This document shows, piece after piece, positions 12,451-22,168 of a stretch of DNA of 27,511 bases. Position numbers and translations under genes: made by a program. The stretch lies in IMG/VR virus record IMGVR_UViG_2537562015_000010. One strand, given 5' to 3'. Position 1 is the first letter of the stretch. Each line of letters opens with the position of its first letter. The stretch is from a virus (Duplodnaviria > Heunggongvirae > Uroviricota > Caudoviricetes). The notes beneath the pieces are model-generated. The model was not told the origin of the DNA. It did no database searches and saw only the letters and a program-made list of their open reading frames with translations.

Positions 12451-14202
12451 ATGATTCAGGACGCTTTTGTGCGCCAGCGTGCGCGGCAACTTTACTGGCA
12501 GGGTTATCCGCCCGCAGAAATATCACGTCTGATGGGAATAAACCCGAACACGATTTATGCGTGGAAAAAACGCGACCAGTGGGATGAAACGCCACCCGTG
12601 CAGCGTGTCACGCAGTCCATTGATGCGCGCCTCATCCAGCTTACTGAAAAACAGAATAAAACAGGCGGTGACTTTAAGGAAATAGACCTGCTGACCCGGC
12701 AGCTTAAAAAGCTGCATGATGGCCAGCCGGATGTGATGGCCGCAGGAAAGAAAGGCCGGGCGAAAAAACTCAAAAATCATTTCACGCCGGAACAGATTGC
12801 CGCACTGCGGGAAAAAATCATCAGCAGGCTGGAGTGGCATCAGCGGGGCTGGTTTGACTCCCTGACCCTTTGCAGGGAAGCCGGGATACGTAACAGGATG
12901 ATCCTGAAATCCCGACAGATTGGGGCGACCTGGTATTTTGCACAGGAAGCACTGCTGATGGCGCTGCGTGACGATGTGACGCAACCTTACCAGCGTAACC
13001 AGATTTTTTTGTCTGCGTCGCGTCGTCAGGCGTTCCAGTTTAAAAGCATTATTCAGAAGGCTGCATCTGAAGTTGATGTGGAGCTGAAAGGGGGCGATAA
13101 AATCATCCTCTCCAACGGTGCAGAGCTGCATTTTCTTGGTACTTCTGCTGCGACGGCACAGTCCTACACGGGCAATTTTTATTTTGATGAATTTTTCTGG
13201 GTCAGCCGCTTTGCTGAACTGCGCAAGGTGGCTGGCGCTATGGCAACCCTCAGCGGACTGCGGCGCACCTACTTCTCCACGCCATCCACCGAAACGCACG
13301 AGGCATACGCCTACTGGAACGGCGACCGCTGGAACGAGAAAAAGGCCACGCATAAACGCCAGCGTTTTTCTGTGGACTGGAAAACGCTGCATAACGGGCT
13401 TATCTGCCCTGACCGGACGTGGCGGCAAATTGTCACGCTGGAAGATGTGGTTAATCACGGCTGGAAACACACCGATATTGACGAAATTCGTGATGAAAAC
13501 ACCGAAGACGAGTTCCGCAATCTCTATATGTGTGAGTTTGTCCGCGAAGGGGAATCGGCATTTAACCTGAATATCCTGATTGGCTGCGGTGTTGACGGAT
13601 ACGACGACTGGAAAGACTGGAAACCTTTTGCTCCCCGCCCGATGGGGAATCGTCCGGTATGGATTGGGTATGACGCAAACGGCAGCAGTGGCAACGGCGA
13701 CAGCGGCGCTGTGTCCGTGGTGGTTCCTCCGGCTGTTCCTGGTGGCCGTTTTCGAACGGTGGAGACGCGACGCGTTCAGGGGCTGGAGTTTGAAGAACAG
13801 GCCAGAGTCATTGAAGAGTTCACGTGTCGCTACAACGTGGAACACATCGGCATTGATGTGACGGGCGGGAACGGGGAGGCTGTTTATCAGATAGTGAAGC
13901 GGTTTTTCCCTGCTGCTATTCCGTACACCTTCACGCTGTCATCCAAACGGTCGCTGGTACTGAAAATGCTGCAAATAATGCGTGCCGGACGGTGGGAATA
14001 CGATCGCGCCGAACGCGAGCTGGTCGCGGCCTTTAACGCCGTGCGTAAGGTGAAAACACCGGGCGGCTTTATCACTTACGAAACGGACCGCGCGAGGGGG
14101 ATCAGCCACGGCGACCTTGCGTGGGCAACCATGCTTGCTGTCATTAACGAACCAATTGGCGGCGAAGGAGAAAACGAGCGTTTCACGGTTATGGAGTTCT
14201 GA
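12451..14202 (+). CDS. P: Terminase ATPase (large) subunit, P2 gpP-like
   Basis: 583 aa; ATG at 12451 preceded by AGGGGGAG; strong similarity to P2 gpP throughout; its stop overlaps the Q start (TGATG). Confidence 0.9.
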   Translation: MIQDAFVRQRARQLYWQGYPPAEISRLMGINPNTIYAWKKRDQWDETPPVQRVTQSIDARLIQLTEKQNKTGGDFKEIDLLTRQLKKLHDGQPDVMAAGKKGRAKKLKNHFTPEQIAALREKIISRLEWHQRGWFDSLTLCREAGIRNRMILKSRQIGATWYFAQEALLMALRDDVTQPYQRNQIFLSASRRQAFQFKSIIQKAASEVDVELKGGDKIILSNGAELHFLGTSAATAQSYTGNFYFDEFFWVSRFAELRKVAGAMATLSGLRRTYFSTPSTETHEAYAYWNGDRWNEKKATHKRQRFSVDWKTLHNGLICPDRTWRQIVTLEDVVNHGWKHTDIDEIRDENTEDEFRNLYMCEFVREGESAFNLNILIGCGVDGYDDWKDWKPFAPRPMGNRPVWIGYDANGSSGNGDSGAVSVVVPPAVPGGRFRTVETRRVQGLEFEEQARVIEEFTCRYNVEHIGIDVTGGNGEAVYQIVKRFFPAAIPYTFTLSSKRSLVLKMLQIMRAGRWEYDRAERELVAAFNAVRKVKTPGGFITYETDRARGISHGDLAWATMLAVINEPIGGEGENERFTVMEF

Positions 14203-15248
14203 TGAGCAGAAAAAATAAAAAAGTGCGCATGAGTTCACGCATTGATCTCGCTGATGCGCTCAGGAAAGAATCATCGCTCAGTGCATTCACATTTGATGGT
14301 CCTTATCGCCTGACCGGGCATGACCTGCTGGACAATATGTACTGTGCTGATAACGGGCGGTGGTATGAAACCCCGGTGGACTGGTACGGTCTGGCAAGAG
14401 CCGCCCGGCAAACGTCCTGGCATCAGTCTGCGCTTTACTTTAAGCGCAATGTATTGCTCGGTTGCTACATCCCGCACCCGCTGCTTTCCCGGCAGGATTT
14501 CTCGGCGCTGGCGCTGGACTGGTTTGTGTTCGGTAACGCATTCCTTGAGCTTCGGAGTAATATGCTCGGCGAACCACTTAAATTACGGCACGCACTGGCG
14601 AAATACGTGCGACGCGGAAGCGATCTTGAATCATGGTGGTATGTGCAGGATGGCAAGGACGCGTTTCAGTTTCGCCCTGGCAAAGTGTGCCACCTGATGA
14701 ATCCGGACATTAACCAGGAAATTTACGGCATGCCGGAATATCTTGGCGCATTACTCTCGGCCAGCCTTTCTCATTCGGCGGACATGTTCAGAAAACTGTA
14801 CTACGACAACGGATCCCACGCCGGGTGCATCATCTACATCGGTGCAGCGCAGGTAAACCGCGAAAGCATGGACTCCCTGAAAGAAACGCTACAGGGGGCA
14901 CGTGGTGGTGGTGCGTTTAAAAACGTGCTCATTCATGCGCCCAACGGGGGCAAAGAGGGGGTGCAAATTTTGCCGTTCCAGCAGATCACCGCAAAAGATG
15001 AGTTCATGAATGTTAAGGCGGCATCCCGTGATGATGTGCTGGCTGCGCACCGCGTTCCGCCGCAACTGATGGGGGCGATGCCGGGCGAAAAAAGTGCGTT
15101 TGGTGATGTGGAGAAGGCCGCGCGGGTTTACGCAATTAACGAGCTGATGCCCGTCATGGAGGCCATGAAGCATATCAATGACTGGCTTGGCGAAGAGGTG
15201 ATCCGCTTTAACCCTTACGCACTGTTAGATACCCAGCCCACATCCTGA
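14202..15248 (+). CDS. Q: Portal protein, P2 gpQ-like
   Basis: 348 aa, co-directional with and coupled to P; followed by the cos region. Confidence 0.9.
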   Translation: MSRKNKKVRMSSRIDLADALRKESSLSAFTFDGPYRLTGHDLLDNMYCADNGRWYETPVDWYGLARAARQTSWHQSALYFKRNVLLGCYIPHPLLSRQDFSALALDWFVFGNAFLELRSNMLGEPLKLRHALAKYVRRGSDLESWWYVQDGKDAFQFRPGKVCHLMNPDINQEIYGMPEYLGALLSASLSHSADMFRKLYYDNGSHAGCIIYIGAAQVNRESMDSLKETLQGARGGGAFKNVLIHAPNGGKEGVQILPFQQITAKDEFMNVKAASRDDVLAAHRVPPQLMGAMPGEKSAFGDVEKAARVYAINELMPVMEAMKHINDWLGEEVIRFNPYALLDTQPTS

Positions 15249-15879: not shown

Positions 15880-15911
15880 ATAAGCAAAAGCCCGCCACAT
15901 CTGGCGGGCTT
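15880..15911 (-). terminator. Rho-independent terminator of the cargo operon
   Basis: 10-bp stem AAGCCCGCCA / TGGCGGGCTT with loop CATC; on the minus strand it is followed by TTTTGCTTAT; about 55 nt downstream of the ASCH gene stop. Confidence 0.55.
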
Positions 15912-15964
15912 CAGCGAAACGGTCCTTAAACGATCATGCAGAACCATGCAGCAAAGTCATGCTC

Positions 15965-16342
15965 TTATCCGCGTATATACCTAAAGGACTGAGGTGGTAC
16001 AGCGCCAGGTATCAATTCATTAAGTGGAATTGGAGTATCATAGCGCAGAGGGTTTTTTACTTCTATTGCGAATCCCTTGTCTCTTTCTGAAAAATATTCA
16101 TCAAAAAAATCCCGCGTAATACCTGCATACTTTTTTGTCATATTCCATAATTCATCTGGCTGAGATGACAAAACCTTTTCGATTTCAAACTCACCAATTA
16201 CCTTTCCGACGGGCATTGTTGCATAAATAATAACCGCTCGGACTTCTTTGTTCCGAAAAATTGTCTTCCTGAATTCGAATTTTTTATATCCATTTAAAAT
16301 GGATTCAGCGAACTCTGGTTTAATCGACAATAAAATTTTCAT
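15965..16342 (-). CDS. ASCH (PUA-like) domain protein, cargo gene 2
   Basis: 125 aa; N-terminus MKILLSIKPEFAESILNGYKKFEFRK carries the ASCH signature G-x-K-x-x-E-x-R; AT-rich codon usage; ATG at 16340-16342 overlaps the upstream gene by 23 nt. Confidence 0.6.
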   Translation of the reverse strand: MKILLSIKPEFAESILNGYKKFEFRKTIFRNKEVRAVIIYATMPVGKVIGEFEIEKVLSSQPDELWNMTKKYAGITRDFFDEYFSERDKGFAIEVKNPLRYDTPIPLNELIPGAVPPQSFRYIRG

Positions 16343-17375
16343 TAACCTTTCCCGCGCTTAAAACAGCTTTGAAGTGAATATCACTTAACGTGAAGAACCC
16401 TGAATAGCTTGGAGTATAACCTAAAATACTCAACAATTCATCTCTAATTATTCTTTTTTGCAAAGGGAAATTGTAAGTTAACTTAATTACATGTGGAGGA
16501 TAACATCTGCTATAATAAGCATGTAATTCTTCATCAGAAAAAATACTGGCGCCTCCACAATAAGACTTAAACTCATCATATGATAAAAATTCTCGAATGT
16601 TTTTATACTCTTGTAATGTACAAACAGAAGTAACCACCGACCGATATTTCGCCGCTCCCTGTCCATCTGTCGTTCGATAAATAATTATATTATCTCCTGG
16701 CTGAAGAAGCTCCATGCCTTTCATCGCGCCAATATATATCTTATGAATACTATTAGTATAAGTAACATCTTCTAAAATAGAATCATTTTCATTTTTTAAA
16801 ATTGACTCCGGGAAAAGCCTTGAATGAAACTCAGGTTTAATGGCTAATAAAAAATTTCTTCCATTCATTTTTATCATAGGATAATTATTATAAAATGATG
16901 CTGCTGATGGCTTCCAGTTAAAATCCTTAAAGTAGACACCTTCACAACCGTTTTCCGTCTCAAGATTTTTTCTTGAACACAATTTAAAACCATAGCGTTC
17001 AAGTAAACGAATCAATCCTTGATGTTTGTCAAAGATAGTAACGTACACTTCCTGAATATCATGAGGCATTGCAAAATCAAATATTTTTCTTACAAATCTC
17101 TCCCCCATTTTCGTTCCACGAGCATCTATTTTAAATGTTCCGCATTTAAGACGTTTTTTCATAGGGAAAGATGGGGTCATGTCATTTAATTCTTCATTTT
17201 CAATTTTGAGGTATAAAAAACCATCTATTTTTCCATAGTCATCATAAGATACGTATGCTTTCTCGTTTCTTTTCTTTAAGAACCAGCTTTCAAAAGTTGG
17301 GTAGTCATTTTTAAGTGAGTCAAAAAAAACATCTGAGAGGTCAACCTTCCCAAATTCGACATAACTAAGAGACAT
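16320..17375 (-). CDS. Two-domain cargo protein: N-terminal GNAT-like acetyltransferase fold plus C-terminal divergent ASCH-like domain
   Basis: 351 aa; the segment RGTKMGERFVRKIFDFAMPHDIQEVYVTIFDKHQGLIRLLERYGFK resembles GNAT motifs A/B; the C-terminal half begins LLAIKPEF, paralogous to the downstream ASCH protein but lacking the G-x-K-x-x-E-x-R motif; ATG at 17373-17375 with AAGGA upstream; AT-rich. Confidence 0.5.
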   Translation of the reverse strand: MSLSYVEFGKVDLSDVFFDSLKNDYPTFESWFLKKRNEKAYVSYDDYGKIDGFLYLKIENEELNDMTPSFPMKKRLKCGTFKIDARGTKMGERFVRKIFDFAMPHDIQEVYVTIFDKHQGLIRLLERYGFKLCSRKNLETENGCEGVYFKDFNWKPSAASFYNNYPMIKMNGRNFLLAIKPEFHSRLFPESILKNENDSILEDVTYTNSIHKIYIGAMKGMELLQPGDNIIIYRTTDGQGAAKYRSVVTSVCTLQEYKNIREFLSYDEFKSYCGGASIFSDEELHAYYSRCYPPHVIKLTYNFPLQKRIIRDELLSILGYTPSYSGFFTLSDIHFKAVLSAGKVNENFIVD

Positions 17376-17425
17376 TGTGCCATCCTTTTCAGTAGGTATT
17401 TTGCAAAAAAACGTTACTGTATCTC

Positions 17426-17453
17426 AAAATATATGTAAATAAACTTAGATCAA
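17426..17453 (-). promoter_or_regulatory. Candidate sigma70 promoter for the cargo operon
   Basis: On the minus strand TTGATC-N16-TATTTT, about 45-50 nt upstream of the cargo ATG, in an AT-rich spacer. Confidence 0.3.
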
Positions 17454-17491
17454 AAAAATGCTTACTAACGCTTTGTCTTACCGGGGCTGTG

Positions 17492-17551
17492 TGTGTCGAA
17501 ATACTCGCTTAGTGGCAGGGTGATAACTACATCTACCTCTACTGGTGCAAT
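17492..17551 (-). pseudogene. About 60-nt relic of a parM-like gene (recombination scar at the cargo boundary)
   Basis: By hand alignment, 17492-17551 is about 83% identical (50 of 60) to 18539-18598 inside the intact parM-like gene; no ORF spans it. Confidence 0.5.
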
Positions 17552-17589
17552 ATCAGACTCTGCCCGGCGCAGAGTATTCCGACTGTTGG

Positions 17590-17901
17590 TCATTGAGGGA
17601 ACATGGCCTGTATATTCTTTTTCATCTGTGTAACGTTGTTGTTCTCTGTATCCTGCTGTGGTGATTTATTTCGTGGCGTTGGTGTGAGCGGCTGGCTGAA
17701 TCCGCTTTCAGGCCATTCAGCCAGCCAGTAAGCAAAGGCAGGATCGCTTTTAATGAGTGCCAGTCCAGCCAGAAAGGCCGCGCGTTGCGCGCGGCTACGT
17801 TCAGAGGCTGGCAGGCTGTCGAGGTAATTACACGCCTCCCGTTCACTATTGACGGCGGCTGGCTTCAGATAGAAACTTATCCGTCTGGTTGGTGTCGTCA
17901 T
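17590..17901 (-). CDS. parR: ParR-like centromere-binding protein (ribbon-helix-helix)
   Basis: ATG at 17899-17901 with AAGGAG 7 nt upstream, 5 nt after the parM stop; RISFYLKPAAVNSEREACNYLDSLPASERSRAQRAAFLAGLALIKSDP resembles plasmid R1 ParR (TIAFKLNPDV...LDSIPQGERSRLNRAALTAGLALYRQDP); the longer ORF-track form overlapping parM is rejected. Confidence 0.65.
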   Translation of the reverse strand: MTTPTRRISFYLKPAAVNSEREACNYLDSLPASERSRAQRAAFLAGLALIKSDPAFAYWLAEWPESGFSQPLTPTPRNKSPQQDTENNNVTQMKKNIQAMFPQ

Positions 17902-17905
17902 TGGT

Positions 17906-18865
17906 TTACTCCTTGTCCATTGCGTACAGCCCATTAACCAGAGCAAACTGTGGCACCCCGTCCGCGATGAAAGTCGCATTAACTCCGCAGGCTTCGCGGA
18001 TAGCGGGTGCCACAATCTCCGCCCCGCCACCGACAACCATCACCCGTCCGTAACCCGAAAAACCCGCCAGCGCGCGGATCACGCGTTGTTTCAGTGTTTC
18101 TTCCTTTTCACGAATAACCGCCATCAGGCTGGCGTAATGCGCGTCATTGTGGATGTGCTGGCGCAGCCAGGCTTCATCATGGCGATGTTCGATAATGGTA
18201 TTGGCGATGTGGTGACTGGTGCGCATACCGTTAGTGGCCATCACCGACAGTACGGCATCGGCCATCAGAGAAACGCCTACGTGTGGATCGCAAAACACCT
18301 GGCTGATACCTGCCAGTTGCCCCTGAACCTTTGCCACATCCAGCGTGGTTCCGCCCAAATCCACAATCAGCAGGGATTCAAACGGACTCATGTCAGCCAG
18401 TGCCTTAAAGCCAGCCGGAATGGATTCAGGCATAACCCGCACGTTACGGATAGTGAATGCTTCGCCGTTCTGGTACTCCACCGGGCGCATGACGTTCGCT
18501 TTTTTGCGGTTGATGTTGGCCATGTCCGGCTGTGCGTTTGTGTCGAAATATTCGCTCAGTGGCAGGGTGACAACCACATCCACCTCCTGTGGTGTGATGC
18601 CTGATTTGACCAGCGCGTGATGAATGGCAATGACATTCACATCGCTGTACTGGTATTGCGTGTCGGTCGTCTGGACAAAGCGATCGCTGACCGGATCAAA
18701 ACCATAGCGCACGCCATCAAGCATGTAGTTCGCGGGCTGCGTGCCACCGAACGGCGCAGACCATTCCGACTTGAAGCTGTTCGGGCTGATGGCGTTGCGG
18801 CGTTCGCCGTTCTCAGTCCATGCCAGCTTGATGTTGGTGGAGCCGTCATCGATACAAATTTTCAT
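17906..18865 (-). CDS. parM: ParM/StbA-like actin-type segregation ATPase
   Basis: 319 aa; N-terminus MKICIDDGSTNIKLAW...ISPNSFK...YQYSDVNVIAIHHAL resembles R1 ParM (MLVFIDDGSTNIKLQW...); ATG at 18863-18865 with AAGGA upstream. Confidence 0.8.
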   Translation of the reverse strand: MKICIDDGSTNIKLAWTENGERRNAISPNSFKSEWSAPFGGTQPANYMLDGVRYGFDPVSDRFVQTTDTQYQYSDVNVIAIHHALVKSGITPQEVDVVVTLPLSEYFDTNAQPDMANINRKKANVMRPVEYQNGEAFTIRNVRVMPESIPAGFKALADMSPFESLLIVDLGGTTLDVAKVQGQLAGISQVFCDPHVGVSLMADAVLSVMATNGMRTSHHIANTIIEHRHDEAWLRQHIHNDAHYASLMAVIREKEETLKQRVIRALAGFSGYGRVMVVGGGAEIVAPAIREACGVNATFIADGVPQFALVNGLYAMDKE

Positions 18866-18894
18866 GTCGCTTTTCCTTATGTTGATTAATTAAT

Positions 18895-19005
18895 CGTTTA
18901 CGGGATTCTGAAATCCCGTTTTTGCCTGTTTTATGCGCGCTTCATATATCGCGGCGCGTTTTTTGCTCATTTACGGGATTTGTGAATCCCGTTTCTGTCT
19001 GTTTT
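18895..19005. repeat. Two 38-bp direct repeats, each containing the palindrome ACGGGATT-N4-AATCCCGT
   Basis: Repeat 1 at 18895-18932 (A-parM intergenic) and repeat 2 at 18968-19005 (inside the last codons of gpA); 31 of 38 positions identical; 73-bp period. Confidence 0.5.
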
Positions 19006-21782
19006 TTGTTTCCACTGGTCAGGCCACCCCGCAGCAGGTCTGCTTTGCGGCGGGCGCGTTCAGTGGTTTCACTGATTCTCTGTGCGTGCTCTGCGTCGCG
19101 GATGGCGCGCAGCATGTCAGAAAGCACGGTAACGGGGGTTTTCATGGTGTTCTGGTCTTGCTGAAGTGTGGATGCCAGGCGTGCGGCGGCTTCGGGGTCT
19201 GACGCCCCCAGCTGTTCCAGATAGCTGGCGACCGGGTTATGGCAGATCTCCGTGCTGCTTACGCCGTGGTTACGGCTCAGGCGCTGCCAGAGCTGCGTGA
19301 TCCGGCTGTCCGGTCGGGTATCCGGTTTGCGTACAATTTCAAATCCCTGCGGTGCAATGATGCTGCCGTCAACGTACAGACTGCCGCCCCGTAACAGGTG
19401 CTGCATCTGCTGTTCACCGATATGCAGGCCGAGAGATTCAGCAGACTCCCGCCATTCTTTAGCGAGTAATTCGTGGTTATCAGGCAAAGGCCGCGGCTGT
19501 TTGCGGCTCTGTGTCCAGTTCTGCATTTCATCACTGTTGTTTTTTGCCTGTTTGTCACGCAGCGAACGCATCAGCGCCCGGCGTTCGTGCCGTTTCAGTG
19601 AGCGCATCCATTCGTTCACTTCAACACCGTCAGGGATCTGCGGCCACGGTGCTGGCCGTTCTTCCGGCTGTTCTGTCCCGTTGTTGTCCGTTTCCTGTAC
19701 ACGGGGACAGTTATTGCCACGAGTCCAAGGGGCGGCAGGGCCGCCCTGAAGGTCAAAACCATTTTCGCGGGTGCTGTCTTCCGCTTCCGGTTTGCGTCTT
19801 ACCAGCTTCCAGTTATCCGGATGCGTGCACACACGGGAGGATTCCCCGATGAGTGGTGACCAGATCCCATAAATCTGTACGCTCTGTTCGCCGTAATCGT
19901 TCAGCTCTTCTGCGAGGTCGTAGGCGGTGCGAATCAGGTAGTCTTTGCGTGGAACAAGTACGCCACCCTGTTTCTCAATGTAGGTGGCAAAACATCCGGC
20001 ATCAGCGGCAGCGAGTACCGCATCCATTGCGTCATCCTTCAGCCGTTGCGGGCCTTCCGGGTTGCGTGCCATCTGGCTGGCAAGGCGGCGCAGTTCACGC
20101 CACACCTGACGGGAGGGGATACCAAAGAACTGGAACTGGCGGACCCGGTGAAGGCGCGCCCAGCCGATGGCGCGTTCCACGCTCTCGGCCATTGATTTTC
20201 CGGTTTCGTGGTCAACGCGTGGCTTGCCCGTTTTCGGGTCGATGCCATCCACGGCGCGGCTGTCCAGGTTCTTTCCGATGTAGGTGGCGATGTAGCTGGT
20301 TGGCGTGCCTTTTGAGCCGTCGACGTACTCCGCCTTAAAACGCGGAGTTATGTCATCGCCCAGCTCGTGGCGGTCTTCCTGAATGGCAATATCGCGGGTG
20401 TGGGACACGATGGTGTCGATTTCTTCCGGATGTGCAAAGACCATCATATGCCAGTGCACAGTGCCGTCATGGTGAGGCTCCACCGTGCGGATGCCATACC
20501 AGCGAAGACCGTCGCGGTTCAGTTTTTTGCGGACCGCCGCAAAAAACGTGTTAACCAGGTAATCGCTGGAGTCGCGCATGGTGGCCCCGTTCCATTTGGG
20601 ATTCGGATGGCCGTTCTCTGTTGTGGCGTGGTATTTTGACGGGCAGGTGACAGTCAGAAACACCGCTTTGTCGCCACGGGCTTCGGCCAGAAGTTCCAGT
20701 CCCTTCATGGTGGCCATCATTTCTGCCTTACGGTGAACCGGGTTACTTACTCCCGCGTAATACACCGTCTCGAGATCAATCGTGAACCCGTCTTCGTTTT
20801 CCAGCATGAAACTTTTCAGGAAATCGCGTGTTTTCTCGCGCTGTGCGCGAAACTCGCTTAACGCGTCCTGGCTCAGATAGGGTGATGTTTTTCTGGAAAC
20901 CAGACAGGCGGCGCGGAGTTGTTCTTCCCGCCACTCGCAACGTAACAGCCACAGTTTGCGCTTCCACCAGTCCGCACAGGTCAGGCGAAGGATTGCACCC
21001 GGCAGCAGCTCTGTGTCCGGTTCGTTCCTCCGGTCTTTGTCTGTTGTCAGTACGTCATAATGCGGAGGCATGGCGTGCAGGTGTAACGCCATGCGGGCCA
21101 GCATCTGATACGCCTTCAGGGTTACATCCATGGTCAGCTCGCCATCGGTCGCGCCAAAGCCGTCGCAGAGTTTTTCGAAGGTGCTGCTGAACATTGCCGC
21201 CGTCATGGTGGCCAGCGTCTGTATCTGGCGCTTGTTAAGCTGCGGCAGGTAAAGCAAATCGTCCAGGCGTTCGCGTCCGGCAAGGGCGCGATAACCCGGT
21301 GTCAGCCAGCGGCTGTCGGTGCGCTCCAGACGTTCGAATATTTTGCGCAGGGTTCCGCGCGCGTAGCGTTCAGCCTGCCAGCTCTTTTTGCCTTTCTGGC
21401 GATCGGCTTCCTGTTTTTTGCGCAGGAAAGAGAGGTGGCGGCTCAGTGGTTCACGCAGATAAACAGGTAGTGCCTTTAGTGTGGCAAAGGCACGGGCTAC
21501 TGGGTCTTGTTCTGTTGCCCGGCGCTTACTGATGATGCTCTGTGTCAGCTTTTCACGCTGTCCGGCTTCCTCAAGGGATGCCATGAGTTTTTTACCCATG
21601 GCGGATTGTGCGAAAAAGGCTTCTTCCTTCGCTTCCTGTTCTTCCTGTGCCCTTTTGTCTGCCTCAAGGTAGTAACGGATGGCGCGTTGCAGGTCGGTTT
21701 CAGTTTCCTGCCTGCGCTCCGTAAATCTGGCCGGATCAATGGCTGGCCGTGGTTCATTCCAGCTCCATGCAAACTCGCTCAT
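18942..21782 (-). CDS. A: Replication initiator (rolling-circle nickase), P2 gpA-like
   Basis: RTVEPHHDGTVHWHMMVF (HUH motif) and SYIATYIGKN match P2 gpA; preferred start is ATG 21780-21782 in an ATGA overlap with the upstream ORF (the ORF track begins at GTG 21809); about 946 aa, longer than P2 gpA at both ends. Confidence 0.85.
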   Translation of the reverse strand: MSEFAWSWNEPRPAIDPARFTERRQETETDLQRAIRYYLEADKRAQEEQEAKEEAFFAQSAMGKKLMASLEEAGQREKLTQSIISKRRATEQDPVARAFATLKALPVYLREPLSRHLSFLRKKQEADRQKGKKSWQAERYARGTLRKIFERLERTDSRWLTPGYRALAGRERLDDLLYLPQLNKRQIQTLATMTAAMFSSTFEKLCDGFGATDGELTMDVTLKAYQMLARMALHLHAMPPHYDVLTTDKDRRNEPDTELLPGAILRLTCADWWKRKLWLLRCEWREEQLRAACLVSRKTSPYLSQDALSEFRAQREKTRDFLKSFMLENEDGFTIDLETVYYAGVSNPVHRKAEMMATMKGLELLAEARGDKAVFLTVTCPSKYHATTENGHPNPKWNGATMRDSSDYLVNTFFAAVRKKLNRDGLRWYGIRTVEPHHDGTVHWHMMVFAHPEEIDTIVSHTRDIAIQEDRHELGDDITPRFKAEYVDGSKGTPTSYIATYIGKNLDSRAVDGIDPKTGKPRVDHETGKSMAESVERAIGWARLHRVRQFQFFGIPSRQVWRELRRLASQMARNPEGPQRLKDDAMDAVLAAADAGCFATYIEKQGGVLVPRKDYLIRTAYDLAEELNDYGEQSVQIYGIWSPLIGESSRVCTHPDNWKLVRRKPEAEDSTRENGFDLQGGPAAPWTRGNNCPRVQETDNNGTEQPEERPAPWPQIPDGVEVNEWMRSLKRHERRALMRSLRDKQAKNNSDEMQNWTQSRKQPRPLPDNHELLAKEWRESAESLGLHIGEQQMQHLLRGGSLYVDGSIIAPQGFEIVRKPDTRPDSRITQLWQRLSRNHGVSSTEICHNPVASYLEQLGASDPEAAARLASTLQQDQNTMKTPVTVLSDMLRAIRDAEHAQRISETTERARRKADLLRGGLTSGNKKQTETGFTNPVNEQKTRRDI

Positions 21783-22168
21783 GGCTGGTATCCCGTCACG
21801 CGCTGCCACTCCTGCGAGAAGATGGCGGAAAGGCGGTTAAATTCAGCGGTGTATTCACTCAGCGAGGCACACCCGCCAGCAGTGCGATGCGCCAGCATTG
21901 CCGCGAATACGGAGGCCGGGGAGTCGTAATACGCCAGCAGTGATTCGCCGTGTGGTGTCAGGCAGTGCAACGCCAGCCCGTGTGGTGTGAAGTCCACGCG
22001 GTAGCAGTCGTCTACTGTGAAATAAAGGGTGTCCACATTCTCCGGTTTTGTAGTGCGTGCTCTGTTGTCACGACCACGGATATAAAGATCAAATAATCCC
22101 TGAAGAACGGGAGCCAGACGGGTGTCCTGTGTGCGCACCCATCTTGTGAAGTCATGAGCGTCAATCAT
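21779..22168 (-). CDS. Hypothetical early protein
   Basis: ORF coupled to gpA by an ATGA overlap; first ATG at 22166-22168 (the ORF track begins at TTG 22198); no recognisable motif. Confidence 0.4.
   Translation of the reverse strand: MIDAHDFTRWVRTQDTRLAPVLQGLFDLYIRGRDNRARTTKPENVDTLYFTVDDCYRVDFTPHGLALHCLTPHGESLLAYYDSPASVFAAMLAHRTAGGCASLSEYTAEFNRLSAIFSQEWQRVTGYQP

What the first reader, a model, noticed from the sequence alone, without database searches (positions are those of the whole stretch)
15965..17375. AT-rich two-gene cargo operon (GNAT-like/ASCH-like fusion + ASCH protein) in the P2 old/tin hotspot: candidate novel defence or toxin-antitoxin module
The segment between the cos region and the replication genes is the classic variable cargo site of P2-like phages. 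Here it holds a compact operon with its own promoter-like sequence and terminator and a much lower GC content than the flanking phage genes. Gene 1 (351 aa) appears to combine a GNAT acetyltransferase fold with a divergent ASCH/PUA-like domain; gene 2 (125 aa), overlapping it by 23 nt, is a canonical ASCH domain protein. ASCH domains are PUA-like nucleic-acid readers, and one E. coli member (YqfB) is an N4-acetylcytidine amidohydrolase. An acetyltransferase paired with a possible acyl-eraser or reader suggests a writer/eraser pair acting on RNA or nucleotides. I do not recognise this architecture as any named system.
Basis: partly seen in the sequence, partly recalled or inferred. Interest (0 to 1): 0.85.

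Follow-up and report, generated by a model that had tools for sequence, protein, structure and literature searches.

The report
GNAT-EVE/ASCH prophage cargo module (PDC-M11)
The two AT-rich genes are real and sit in the variable cargo slot of a P2-like prophage, but they belong to an already catalogued, still untested family: a GNAT-EVE acetyltransferase plus an ASCH protein, listed by PADLOC as PDC-M11 and annotated once in GenBank as the GevT/GevA toxin-antitoxin pair.

Summary
Gene A (16320-17375, minus strand, 351 aa) and gene B (15965-16342, minus strand, 125 aa) overlap by 23 nt. Their GC content is 0.30-0.36 against about 0.55 in the flanks. They lie between the portal gene and the parM/replication genes of a P88/SopEPhi-type P2-like prophage.

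Structure prediction and fold search show that A is an N-terminal GNAT fused to a PUA-like, EVE-type domain. That domain lacks the ASCH catalytic motif. B is a canonical ASCH protein whose G-x-K-x-x-E-x-R motif is identical in all 81 orthologs examined.

The architecture is not new. It is the PIN-less form of the "(PIN)-GNAT-EVE + ASCH (+AAA_17)" operon of Iyer 2013 and Bell, Wolf and Koonin 2020. It hits PADLOC's untested candidate PDC-M11 at E = 3.9e-131 (A) and 5.7e-51 (B). It is 44% and 55% identical to genes annotated "GevT toxin / GevA antitoxin" in lambdoid phage PhiR47_2.

All 80 surveyed A loci, from many phyla, also carry B. The 23-nt overlap is conserved in 63 of them.

The most likely function is a toxin-antitoxin-like conflict or defence module. 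A would acetylate a nucleic-acid target and B would remove or counter the mark. That mechanism is inferred and was not tested here. I found no experimental paper.

Verdict: a new member of a known, uncharacterised kind, of moderate interest.

The parts
16320..17375 (-). Gene A: 351-aa GNAT-EVE fusion protein (PDC-M11A, GevT-like), the putative acetyltransferase toxin or effector.
   Evidence: ORF. PADLOC PDC-M11A E = 3.9e-131. PHROG phrog_6345, function unknown. AF2 model pLDDT 89.3, pTM 0.86. 44% identical over its full length to GevT of phage PhiR47_2.
16908..17375 (-). GNAT acetyltransferase domain of A (about aa 1-156). The motif A loop is R86-G-T-K-M-G91.
16323..16883 (-). PUA-like (EVE-type) domain of A (about aa 165-351). 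It lacks the ASCH G-x-K-x-x-E-x-R motif and is the presumed nucleic-acid or modified-base reader.
   Evidence: Foldseek: ZmASCH 5y6b E = 1.5e-6 (TM 0.66-0.70), THYN1 EVE 5j3e. Pfam EVE weakly in 3/42 homologs, ASCH in 0/42. hhalign against the B family: E = 0.003, with P-E-S-I-L-K-N-E where B has the catalytic motif.
15965..16342 (-). Gene B: 125-aa ASCH protein (PDC-M11B, GevA-like), the putative amidohydrolase eraser or antitoxin.
   Evidence: Pfam ASCH E = 1.2e-6. PADLOC PDC-M11B E = 5.7e-51. ZmASCH 5GUS E = 4.6e-12 over its full length. K20, E23, R25 and Y40 are invariant in 81 orthologs. 55% identical to GevA.
16320..16342 (-). 23-nt dual-coding overlap of A's 3' end and B's 5' end (translational coupling).
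   Evidence: Sequence. The overlap is exactly 23 nt in 63/80 loci and 23-35 nt in 73/80 loci across many phyla. GevT/GevA have the same 23-nt overlap.
17383..17386 (-). Shine-Dalgarno AGGA, 7 nt upstream of A's ATG.
   Evidence: Read from the sequence.
17398..17427 (-). Weak sigma-70-like promoter candidate (TTGAGA-18-CAAAAT).
   Evidence: Consensus scan, 9/12 matches. Such sites are not enriched over shuffled sequence. This part is tentative.
15882..15912 (-). Intrinsic terminator: GC-rich hairpin followed by a U-run, about 55 nt after B's stop codon.
   Evidence: Sequence. RNA fold dG -24.7 kcal/mol, z = -4.55.
17489..17584 (-). Degraded parM fragment at the cargo boundary (recombination scar).
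   Evidence: 17489-17547 is 85% identical to parM-internal 18536-18594, and 17565-17584 is 90% identical to 18752-18771.

Best explanation
This is the PIN-less, prophage-borne form of the GNAT-EVE + ASCH two-gene module (PADLOC PDC-M11; called GevT/GevA in one GenBank record). It is carried as a self-contained, horizontally acquired cargo cassette in the old/tin-type hotspot of a P2-like prophage.

Proposed mechanism (inferred, not shown): protein A is the toxic effector. Its EVE-type PUA domain docks on a nucleic acid, probably at a flipped-out or modified base. Its GNAT domain then transfers an acetyl group from acetyl-CoA to a nearby amine. The most plausible targets are cytosine N4 in RNA or tRNA (or in DNA), or the alpha-amine of an aminoacyl-tRNA. 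Protein B is an ASCH amidohydrolase with an intact K/E/R catalytic motif. It is made in fixed ratio with A through the 23-nt overlap, and it removes the acetyl mark or otherwise neutralises A, which keeps the lysogen healthy. Infection by another phage would upset this balance, acetylated nucleic acid would accumulate, and translation or replication would stall. The result would be abortive-infection-type protection, or alternatively plain addiction of the host to the element.

Shown here: the domain identities, the motif conservation, the obligate A-B linkage and overlap, the locations on mobile elements and in hotspots, and family membership. Inferred: toxicity, substrate, reversal by B, trigger, and any anti-phage phenotype.
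For: Family membership: PADLOC PDC-M11A E = 3.9e-131 and PDC-M11B E = 5.7e-51. The architecture matches Bell et al. 2020 exactly, including the optional AAA_17 gene and the prophage location of the PIN-less form.

B's catalytic residues K20, E23 and R25 are invariant in 81/81 sequences. Y40 (ZmASCH Y47) is invariant, and PQS119 (ZmASCH S128) is conserved in about 99%. In the 2026 preprint, all 19 tested ASCH proteins, including B's closest solved relative ZmASCH, remove ac4C from purified tRNA, and K and E are the essential dyad.

A's own PUA domain lacks that motif. That fits a division of labour between a reader on A and a hydrolase in B.

Toxin-antitoxin-like genetics: B is present in 80/80 A loci, with a 23-nt overlap in 63/80. 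B-family proteins also occur without A, as in ZmASCH. GenBank PV340567 annotates the 44%/55%-identical pair as 'GevT toxin / GevA antitoxin', directly downstream of cI on the same strand; from my own knowledge of lambda, that is the position rexAB occupies.

Conflict context: a P2 hotspot whose cargo varies between genomes; the same cassette in SopEPhi; a Legionella conjugative element next to ArdC, near AbiE and Mrr; fusion or adjacency to putAbiC; 16 phage and 33 plasmid records; and a wide but patchy spread at about 45% identity.
Against: No experiment on any member was found in the searchable literature. PDC-M11 is explicitly one of 145 untested candidates.

The GNAT motif A is non-canonical. 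It reads R/H-G-T-K-x-G, with Lys where the central Gly usually sits. The usual general-acid Tyr of PaiA aligns with a Leu. Catalysis is therefore plausible but not assured.

ZmASCH, the closest tested relative of B, was inactive on free ac4C and gave no significant ac4C decrease in vivo. It also has reported ssRNA RNase activity. B could therefore be a nuclease or a binder rather than an eraser.

Immediate neighbours are heterogeneous and include housekeeping genes. Defence-island enrichment was not demonstrated statistically here. No A-B complex model could be made.
Confidence: 0.5

Rival explanations
1. Counter-defence or self-protection by DNA base modification. The prophage uses GNAT-EVE to acetylate a base in its own or the host's DNA, in the manner of phage Mu Mom, so as to evade restriction. 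ASCH and, where present, the AAA_17 kinase would be accessory processing or regulatory enzymes. This follows Iyer et al. 2013 as summarised by Bell et al.
For: Bell et al. report that Iyer et al. proposed acetylation of a DNA base. They also suggest that GNAT-EVE in prophages may protect phages against host RM systems. EVE and ASCH domains bind modified DNA bases: THYN1 with 5mC, and BapA on glucosyl-5hmC DNA. The cassette is phage-borne in P2-like, lambdoid, Lactobacillus and archaeal phages.
Against: The cassette sits in lysogeny-type cargo positions, and in P2-type phages those usually hold host-protective genes. These positions are the P2 old/tin slot here and the slot directly downstream of cI in the lambdoid phage. 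It is also found in chromosomes, conjugative elements and plasmids with no phage around it. It is fused or adjacent to abortive-infection proteins. A tightly coupled hydrolase that would erase the mark is hard to reconcile with a protective modification. The GenBank depositors call the pair toxin and antitoxin.
Confidence: 0.12
2. B is the effector rather than the antidote. On this reading the ASCH protein is a Mg-dependent ssRNA ribonuclease like ZmASCH. GNAT-EVE would be the sensor or regulator, for example by acetylating B or by recognising phage-modified nucleic acid and releasing B's activity.
For: ZmASCH matches the PDC-M11B profile (E = 3e-29) and shares Y47 and S128 with B. It cleaves ssRNA in vitro. 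Many defence systems pair a sensor with a nuclease.
Against: ZmASCH is not encoded next to a GNAT-EVE gene, so its activity may not transfer to B. B-family proteins occur alone in genomes, which is unusual for a toxic effector. The residues most strictly conserved in B (K20, E23, R25) are the amidohydrolase dyad and motif. GenBank calls the B homolog the antitoxin.
Confidence: 0.12
3. A pure addiction (post-segregational killing) toxin-antitoxin module, or selfish cargo, that stabilises the mobile element and has no anti-phage role.
For: It has toxin-antitoxin-like genetics. Here it lies next to plasmid-type partition genes parM/stbB. It occurs on plasmids and conjugative elements. There are no phage-challenge data.
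Against: Its occupancy of classical prophage defence hotspots, its association with putAbiC, and PADLOC's finding of it embedded in BREX, DISARM or type I RM systems all point towards conflict with phages. The two roles are not mutually exclusive.
Confidence: 0.18
4. A housekeeping RNA-modification pair that tunes tRNA or rRNA acetylation, with no role in genetic conflict.
For: ASCH proteins deacetylate tRNA ac4C. The Oxalobacter copy lies among housekeeping genes (valS, argJ, secA).
Against: The cassette is present in only 2 of 5,426 E. coli genomes at this site and in about 17 in any form. It is AT-rich foreign DNA. Its phyletic pattern is patchy with about 45% identity across phyla. It is overwhelmingly found in mobile-element contexts.
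Confidence: 0.03

Closest known systems
(PIN)-GNAT-EVE + ASCH (+AAA_17) operons (Iyer et al. 2013, NAR 41:7635; Bell, Wolf and Koonin 2020, BMC Biol 18:159, PMC7641849)
   Same: The architecture is identical: an N-terminal GNAT fused to a C-terminal EVE-type PUA domain, followed by a separate ASCH gene. [quoted passage not shown] The optional AAA_17 gene was recovered in 21/80 related loci. Longer forms of about 500 aa and about 615 aa, consistent with PIN fusions, appear in the family search.
   Different: This copy has no PIN domain and no AAA_17 gene. Nothing else differs. Those papers are purely computational and give no tested function.
PADLOC phage defence candidate PDC-M11 (Payne et al. 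2024, bioRxiv 10.1101/2024.01.29.577857)
   Same: Both proteins hit the PDC-M11A and PDC-M11B models over their full length (E = 3.9e-131 and 5.7e-51).
   Different: PDC-M11 was defined from cassettes embedded in BREX, DISARM or type I RM loci and is untested. Here the cassette is prophage hotspot cargo.
GevT toxin / GevA antitoxin of Escherichia phage PhiR47_2 (GenBank PV340567.1 annotation)
   Same: 44% (A) and 55% (B) identity over the full length. Same gene order and the same 23-nt overlap. Both are prophage cargo at a lysogeny-associated position.
   Different: It is in a lambdoid phage, directly after cI, rather than in a P2 hotspot. It is a divergent lineage. I could not find or read the study behind the names, so what was actually shown is unknown to me.
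DarTG (ADP-ribosyltransferase toxin plus macrodomain antitoxin; anti-phage TA). Cited from my own knowledge.
   Same: The proposed logic is the same: an enzyme that writes a chemical mark on nucleic acid, encoded upstream of an overlapping gene for the enzyme that erases it, carried on mobile elements.
   Different: The folds and chemistry are unrelated (ADP-ribosylation versus acetylation). The analogy is functional only and is unproven here.
GNAT/RHH type II TA systems (TacAT, AtaRT, KacAT, ItaRT). Cited from my own knowledge.
   Same: A GNAT-fold toxin that uses acetyl-CoA. Bell et al. suggest aminoacyl-tRNA as a possible target of GNAT-EVE.
   Different: Those systems have a small DUF1778/RHH DNA-binding antitoxin encoded upstream, and their toxin has no PUA domain. 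Here the partner is an ASCH enzyme-like protein encoded downstream. Neither protein gave a Pfam hit to an RHH or DUF1778 family, and none of those toxins appeared among the top structural hits.
ASCH amidohydrolases and ZmASCH (YqfB, TthASCH, ZmASCH; PMC6972931, PMC5615036, bioRxiv 10.64898/2026.02.27.708502)
   Same: B has the ASCH fold, the GKER-type octapeptide (G18-x-K20-x-x-E23-x-R25), and the Y47 and S128 equivalents of ZmASCH. ZmASCH matches the PDC-M11B profile.
   Different: Those proteins are stand-alone genes. ZmASCH has no GNAT-EVE neighbour. B's own activity is untested.
Brig3-BapA (PMC13160076)
   Same: It is a precedent for an ASCH-like enzyme (BapA) that removes a substituent from a modified cytosine in phage DNA as part of a two-gene defence operon.
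   Different: BapA's partner is a DNA glycosylase, not a GNAT. BapA is a double beta-barrel glucosyl hydrolase. No sequence relationship was tested.

Membership tests
(PIN)-GNAT-EVE + ASCH operon / PADLOC PDC-M11 | Profile-HMM match of both proteins to the family models. | tested here: met
   PDC-M11A E = 3.9e-131 (aa 3-351). PDC-M11B E = 5.7e-51 (aa 1-124).
(PIN)-GNAT-EVE + ASCH operon / PADLOC PDC-M11 | N-terminal GNAT acetyltransferase fold in the large protein. | tested here: met
(PIN)-GNAT-EVE + ASCH operon / PADLOC PDC-M11 | C-terminal PUA-superfamily (EVE-type) domain fused to the GNAT. | tested here: met
   The PUA-like fold is clear: ZmASCH E = 1.5e-6, with THYN1 EVE also hit. The specific EVE assignment is weak at sequence level (Pfam EVE in 3/42, best E = 5e-4; ASCH in 0/42).
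(PIN)-GNAT-EVE + ASCH operon / PADLOC PDC-M11 | A separate ASCH gene in the same operon. | tested here: met
   B is directly downstream with a 23-nt overlap. B is present in 80/80 related loci.
(PIN)-GNAT-EVE + ASCH operon / PADLOC PDC-M11 | AAA_17 P-loop protein nearby (frequent but optional). | tested here: not met
   There is no AAA_17 homolog in the window. It is present in 21/80 related loci. It is described as non-obligatory, so its absence does not exclude membership.
(PIN)-GNAT-EVE + ASCH operon / PADLOC PDC-M11 | Anti-phage activity. | not testable with these tools
   PDC-M11 is listed among 145 untested candidates.
GevTA toxin-antitoxin (GenBank PV340567 annotation) | Homology and synteny with GevT and GevA. 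| tested here: met
   A versus GevT: 44% identity, E = 2e-96. B versus GevA: 55% identity, E = 1e-53. Same order and the same 23-nt overlap.
GevTA toxin-antitoxin (GenBank PV340567 annotation) | A is toxic and B neutralises it. | not testable with these tools
   Only the depositor's annotation is available, and no paper was found. Indirect support: A was never seen without B, while B-family proteins occur alone.
GNAT/RHH type II TA (TacAT, AtaRT, KacAT, ItaRT) | A small RHH/DUF1778 antitoxin encoded upstream of a single-domain GNAT toxin. | tested here: not met
   The partner is an ASCH protein encoded downstream. Pfam gave no RHH or DUF1778 hit for either protein. The toxin carries an extra PUA domain.
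ASCH N4-acetylcytidine amidohydrolases (GKER/GKTR octapeptide) | ASCH fold with the G-x-K-x-x-[ET]-x-R motif. | tested here: met
   B: Pfam ASCH E = 1.2e-6. Motif G18, K20, E23, R25, with K, E and R invariant in 81/81 orthologs.
ASCH N4-acetylcytidine amidohydrolases (GKER/GKTR octapeptide) | Hydrolysis of ac4C as free nucleoside or in tRNA. | not testable with these tools
   The closest tested relative, ZmASCH, is active only on purified tRNA in vitro.
TmcA/NAT10 RNA cytidine acetyltransferases | GNAT domain coupled to an ATP-dependent helicase-type domain and a tRNA-binding domain (from my own knowledge). | tested here: not met
   A is 351 aa with only GNAT and PUA-like domains. There is no ATPase or helicase domain in the model or in Pfam.
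P2 old/tin-type prophage cargo hotspot | A variable insert between the cos/portal side and the replication gene A side of a P2-like phage. | tested here: met
   Portal, then cargo, then parM/stbB, then the GPA nickase. The flanks occur in 1,433 genomes and the cargo in 2, with different cargo elsewhere. The same slot in SopEPhi and in strain SBF45 holds related cassettes.

The most novel reading that the evidence does not exclude
The module is an acetylation-based writer/eraser immune system. On this reading, an EVE-guided GNAT acetylates cytosine N4, or another base amine, in RNA or DNA, and a dedicated ASCH amidohydrolase erases the mark. It would be the acetyl counterpart of DarTG and the first defence known to work by reversible base acetylation of nucleic acid. 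It would also give the ac4C-eraser activity of ASCH proteins a natural paired writer.
Probability: 0.25. Interest if true: 0.75.

Novelty: new member of a known kind. Interest (0 to 1): 0.35.

Why it matters
The family is widespread. It has 1,961 representatives at 50% clustering, is found in at least 501 species, and occurs in phages, plasmids and conjugative elements from bacteria to archaeal viruses. It has been flagged three separate times as a likely conflict system. I found no published biochemistry or phage-challenge data for it. If the writer/eraser model holds, it would add reversible acetylation of nucleic-acid bases to the known chemistries of bacterial immunity. It would also link the newly reported ASCH ac4C-eraser activity to a physiological partner. 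This particular copy adds little that is new. It is one more instance in a well-known prophage hotspot, nearly identical to orf12/orf13 of Salmonella phage SopEPhi, which have been annotated 'unknown' since 2003. It would still be a convenient E. coli/Salmonella-native version to clone.

Tried and rejected
1. ZmASCH as an in-operon member with known biochemistry: rejected. ZMO0922 matches the PDC-M11B profile, but its upstream 375-aa neighbour is unrelated to A.

2. A's C-terminal domain as a second catalytic ASCH: rejected. The K/E/R motif is absent and Pfam ASCH matches 0/42 homologs.

3. Membership in the TacT/AtaT-type GNAT toxin-antitoxin systems: rejected. The antitoxin type and the gene order are both wrong.

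4. A conserved third partner or conserved neighbourhood: only AAA_17 recurs (21/80 loci). The other 145 nearest neighbours are heterogeneous.

5. A housekeeping role: rejected on rarity, base composition and mobile-element context.

6. Literature trail for 'PDC-M11', 'GNAT-EVE', 'GevT/GevA' and 'PhiR47': only catalogue mentions and Bell et al. were found. Iyer 2013 (PMC3763556) is not held. The Laub-lab preprint that uses the PhiR phage panel has no reference list in the library.

7. Promoter scan: the candidate upstream of A is no better than chance.

8. A-B complex prediction: not attempted.

9. The global hhalign of A's C-terminal half against B failed. Only the local mode gave a weak, topologically consistent alignment.
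Full report
**Observation.** Gene A is at 16320-17375 (351 aa) and gene B at 15965-16342 (125 aa), and they overlap by 23 nt. GC falls to 0.30-0.36 across the pair, against 0.51-0.58 on both sides. A has an AGGA Shine-Dalgarno 7 nt before its ATG. B's ATG lies inside A's last codons, behind a GGGAAAGG. About 55 nt after B's stop there is a GC-rich hairpin with a U-run, with dG -24.7 kcal/mol and z = -4.55. The promoter-like hexamers upstream of A match 9 of 12 positions and are no more than chance would give.

**Phage context.** The window is a P2-like prophage of the P88/Xuanwuvirus-SopEPhi type. It carries terminase (12451-14202), portal (14202-15248), the cargo, a plasmid-type partition pair (StbB-like 17590-18036, ParM 17906-18865), the GPA-type replication nickase (18942-21809), and an integrase at the window's end. 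The flanks of the cargo occur in 1,433 of 5,426 complete E. coli genomes. Only two of those carry this cargo. At the same place others carry XF1762, DUF4760, RelE/ParE and various hypothetical genes. So the site is a true variable cargo slot, equivalent to P2's old/tin position. The P2 gene order is from my own knowledge.

The motif is not canonical. A Lys sits where the central Gly usually does, and PaiA's general-acid Tyr aligns with a Leu. Catalysis is therefore plausible but not assured.

The C-terminal half, about aa 165-351, is a PUA-superfamily beta-barrel. Its best structural matches are ZmASCH (E = 1.5e-6, TM 0.66-0.70) and the EVE protein THYN1. At sequence level, 3 of 42 homologs weakly match Pfam EVE and none match ASCH. 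A local profile-profile alignment of this half to the B family is weak (E = 0.003, probability 11%) but topologically consistent. A's LLAIKPEF aligns with B's LLSIKPEF, and A's IIIYRT with B's VIIYAT. The same alignment shows P-E-S-I-L-K-N-E in A where B has its catalytic motif. A's PUA domain therefore looks like a reader rather than a hydrolase.

B aligns over its full length with the solved Zymomonas mobilis ASCH protein (5GUS, E = 4.6e-12). Among 81 B orthologs, the ASCH octapeptide residues K20, E23 and R25 are invariant. Y40 (ZmASCH Y47) is also invariant, and P117-Q118-S119 (ZmASCH S128) is conserved in about 99%.

**It is a known family.** Both proteins hit PADLOC's PDC-M11A and PDC-M11B models, at E = 3.9e-131 and 5.7e-51. 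PDC-M11 is one of 145 untested 'phage defence candidates' that Payne et al. derived from cassettes embedded in BREX, DISARM and type I RM loci. It is CAS_00069, listed with a count of 293 in the candidate table.

The same architecture was described in detail by Bell, Wolf and Koonin (2020), citing Iyer et al. (2013). They describe '(PIN)-GNAT-EVE' fusion proteins whose operons almost always encode a second PUA-like protein, ASCH, and often an AAA_17 ATPase. [quoted passage not shown] They predicted a toxin-antitoxin system and stated that no module had been characterised experimentally.

GenBank record PV340567 (Escherichia phage PhiR47_2) annotates a pair that is 44% (A) and 55% (B) identical to the window's as 'GevT toxin' and 'GevA antitoxin'. 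That pair has the same 23-nt overlap and lies directly downstream of cI on the same strand. From my own knowledge, that is the position rexAB occupies in lambda. I could not find the study behind those names. RefSeq calls A 'hypothetical protein' and B 'ASCH domain-containing protein'. PHROGs lists both as of unknown function.

**Comparative genomics done here.** A-family proteins number 1,961 representatives at 50% clustering with E <= 1e-3. They fall into three length classes: about 350 aa, about 500 aa (an extra N-terminal 155 aa or so, consistent with the PIN form) and about 615 aa. A scan of one genome per species found at least 501 species with a relative. The 80 best come from Pseudomonadota, Bacteroidota, Bacillota, Acidobacteriota, Verrucomicrobiota, Chloroflexota, Campylobacterota, Spirochaetota and others, at 42-50% identity.

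All 80 loci contain a B homolog. In 63 the overlap is exactly 23 nt and in 73 it is 23-35 nt, so A's C-terminus and B's N-terminus are dual-coded across phyla. A third gene is adjacent or interleaved in 21 of 80 loci. It is a P-loop protein of about 175 aa of the AAA_17 family, with Walker A sequence GIHGVGK[ST]Y. In two loci it is fused to a putAbiC abortive-infection domain. It is absent from the window.

The other nearest neighbours are heterogeneous. They include methyltransferases, KAP NTPase, PifA, phage GPA, integrases, VapE and housekeeping genes. Individual contexts include the following:
- a Legionella conjugative element, between the relaxase and ArdC and near AbiE and Mrr;
- a lone insertion in Oxalobacter;
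- SopEPhi orf12/orf13 in the same slot, at 91-92% identity;
- 16 phage records, including Lactobacillus, Enterococcus and Methanothermobacter phages;
- 33 plasmid records.

B-family proteins also occur without A. ZmASCH itself matches PDC-M11B (E = 3e-29), but its upstream neighbour is unrelated to A.

**How it most likely works.** These points are shown:
- a GNAT fused to a reader-type PUA domain;
- a separate ASCH protein whose catalytic motif is under absolute conservation;
- obligate linkage and translational coupling of the two genes;
- mobile, patchy distribution in prophage cargo slots, conjugative elements and plasmids;
- association with abortive-infection domains.

These steps are inferred. 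A is a toxin or effector that its EVE-type domain guides to a nucleic acid. There it acetylates a base amine, with cytosine N4 the obvious candidate, or an aminoacyl-tRNA amine. B is the antidote that hydrolyses the mark.

The eraser step draws on a 2026 preprint. All 19 ASCH proteins tested there, including ZmASCH, removed ac4C from purified tRNA, and Lys and Glu of the octapeptide were the essential dyad. The logic parallels DarTG (from my own knowledge). The BapA-Brig3 system shows that an ASCH-like enzyme can act on modified cytosine in phage DNA as part of a defence.

There are caveats. ZmASCH was inactive on free ac4C and showed no significant effect in vivo. It also has reported Mg-dependent ssRNA RNase activity, so B could be a nuclease or merely a binder. 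The GNAT motif is atypical. No phage-protection or toxicity data are available to me.

**Rivals.** I weigh four rival explanations, detailed in the Rival explanations section:
- a Mom-like anti-restriction DNA modification (0.12);
- B as an RNase effector with A as the sensor (0.12);
- an addiction-only toxin-antitoxin module (0.18);
- a housekeeping RNA modification pair (0.03).

**Verdict.** The claim of an unrecognised architecture does not hold. This is a new member of a known, catalogued, experimentally uncharacterised kind: GNAT-EVE/ASCH, PDC-M11, 'GevTA'. I score interest at 0.35. The family's mechanism is an open and testable question, and this copy is a convenient enterobacterial exemplar, but a specialist would not be surprised to see it in a P2 hotspot.

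Noticed in passing
window 17489-17547 and 17565-17584 (compare 18536-18594 and 18752-18771): A degraded second copy of internal parM sequence (85% and 90% identical) sits exactly at the GC/AT boundary between the partition genes and the cargo. It is probably a scar of the recombination that swapped the cargo.
   Followed up: partly
window 18894-19000: Two copies of a palindrome (ACGGGATTCTGAAATCCCGT and ACGGGATTTGTGAATCCCGT) lie between the start of parM and the end of the replication gene. They may be a parC-like centromere or ParR-binding site, or terminators.
   Followed up: no
L001:10001-11050, L002:10001-11056, L091:6347-7402 (E. coli SBF45): In three related P2-type prophages, gene A is split at the interdomain linker. 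There is an in-frame stop at aa 156/157 (TGA, TAA and TAA), followed one codon later by an ATG; at least the SBF45 copy has an AAGGAG Shine-Dalgarno just upstream. GNAT and EVE are therefore separate, coupled ORFs there, which suggests the two domains can work as separate polypeptides.
   Followed up: partly
L091:4212-7402 (E. coli SBF45, same P2 hotspot): This is an expanded version of the system: a putAbiC-type abortive infection protein, ASCH, the AAA_17 ATP-binding protein on the opposite strand, a second ASCH, the EVE half and the GNAT half. Eight E. coli genomes share this variant at 65% DNA identity to the window.
   Followed up: partly
L081:10001-13634 (Oxalobacter) and L084:8001-12846 (Zymomonas): The Oxalobacter A-B pair and the solo ZmASCH gene of Zymomonas both lie next to argJ-secA. 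This could be coincidence or a shared insertion site, and it remains unexplained.
   Followed up: no
L086:3671-6245: A B-like ASCH protein (144 aa, matching PDC-M11B) follows, with a 14-nt overlap, an unrelated 717-aa protein whose N-terminus is a weak GNAT match. This may be a parallel GNAT-plus-ASCH pairing built on a different large protein.
   Followed up: partly
L090:4225-6411 (phage PhiR47_2): In lambdoid phages the homologous pair directly follows cI on the same strand. That implies expression in lysogens from the repressor operon. Eight lambdoid phage records share it.
   Followed up: partly
Methanothermobacter phage psiM100, AF301375 8722-9534: ORFD, within the 'inserted fragment IFa' of this archaeal phage, is a 30%-identical homolog of gene A. 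The family therefore reaches archaeal viruses.
   Followed up: no
window 17590-18865: This P2-like prophage carries a plasmid-type ParM/StbB partition pair between the cargo and the replication gene. The pair is shared with P88-like phages, which hints at a plasmid-like or stabilised maintenance mode.
   Followed up: no
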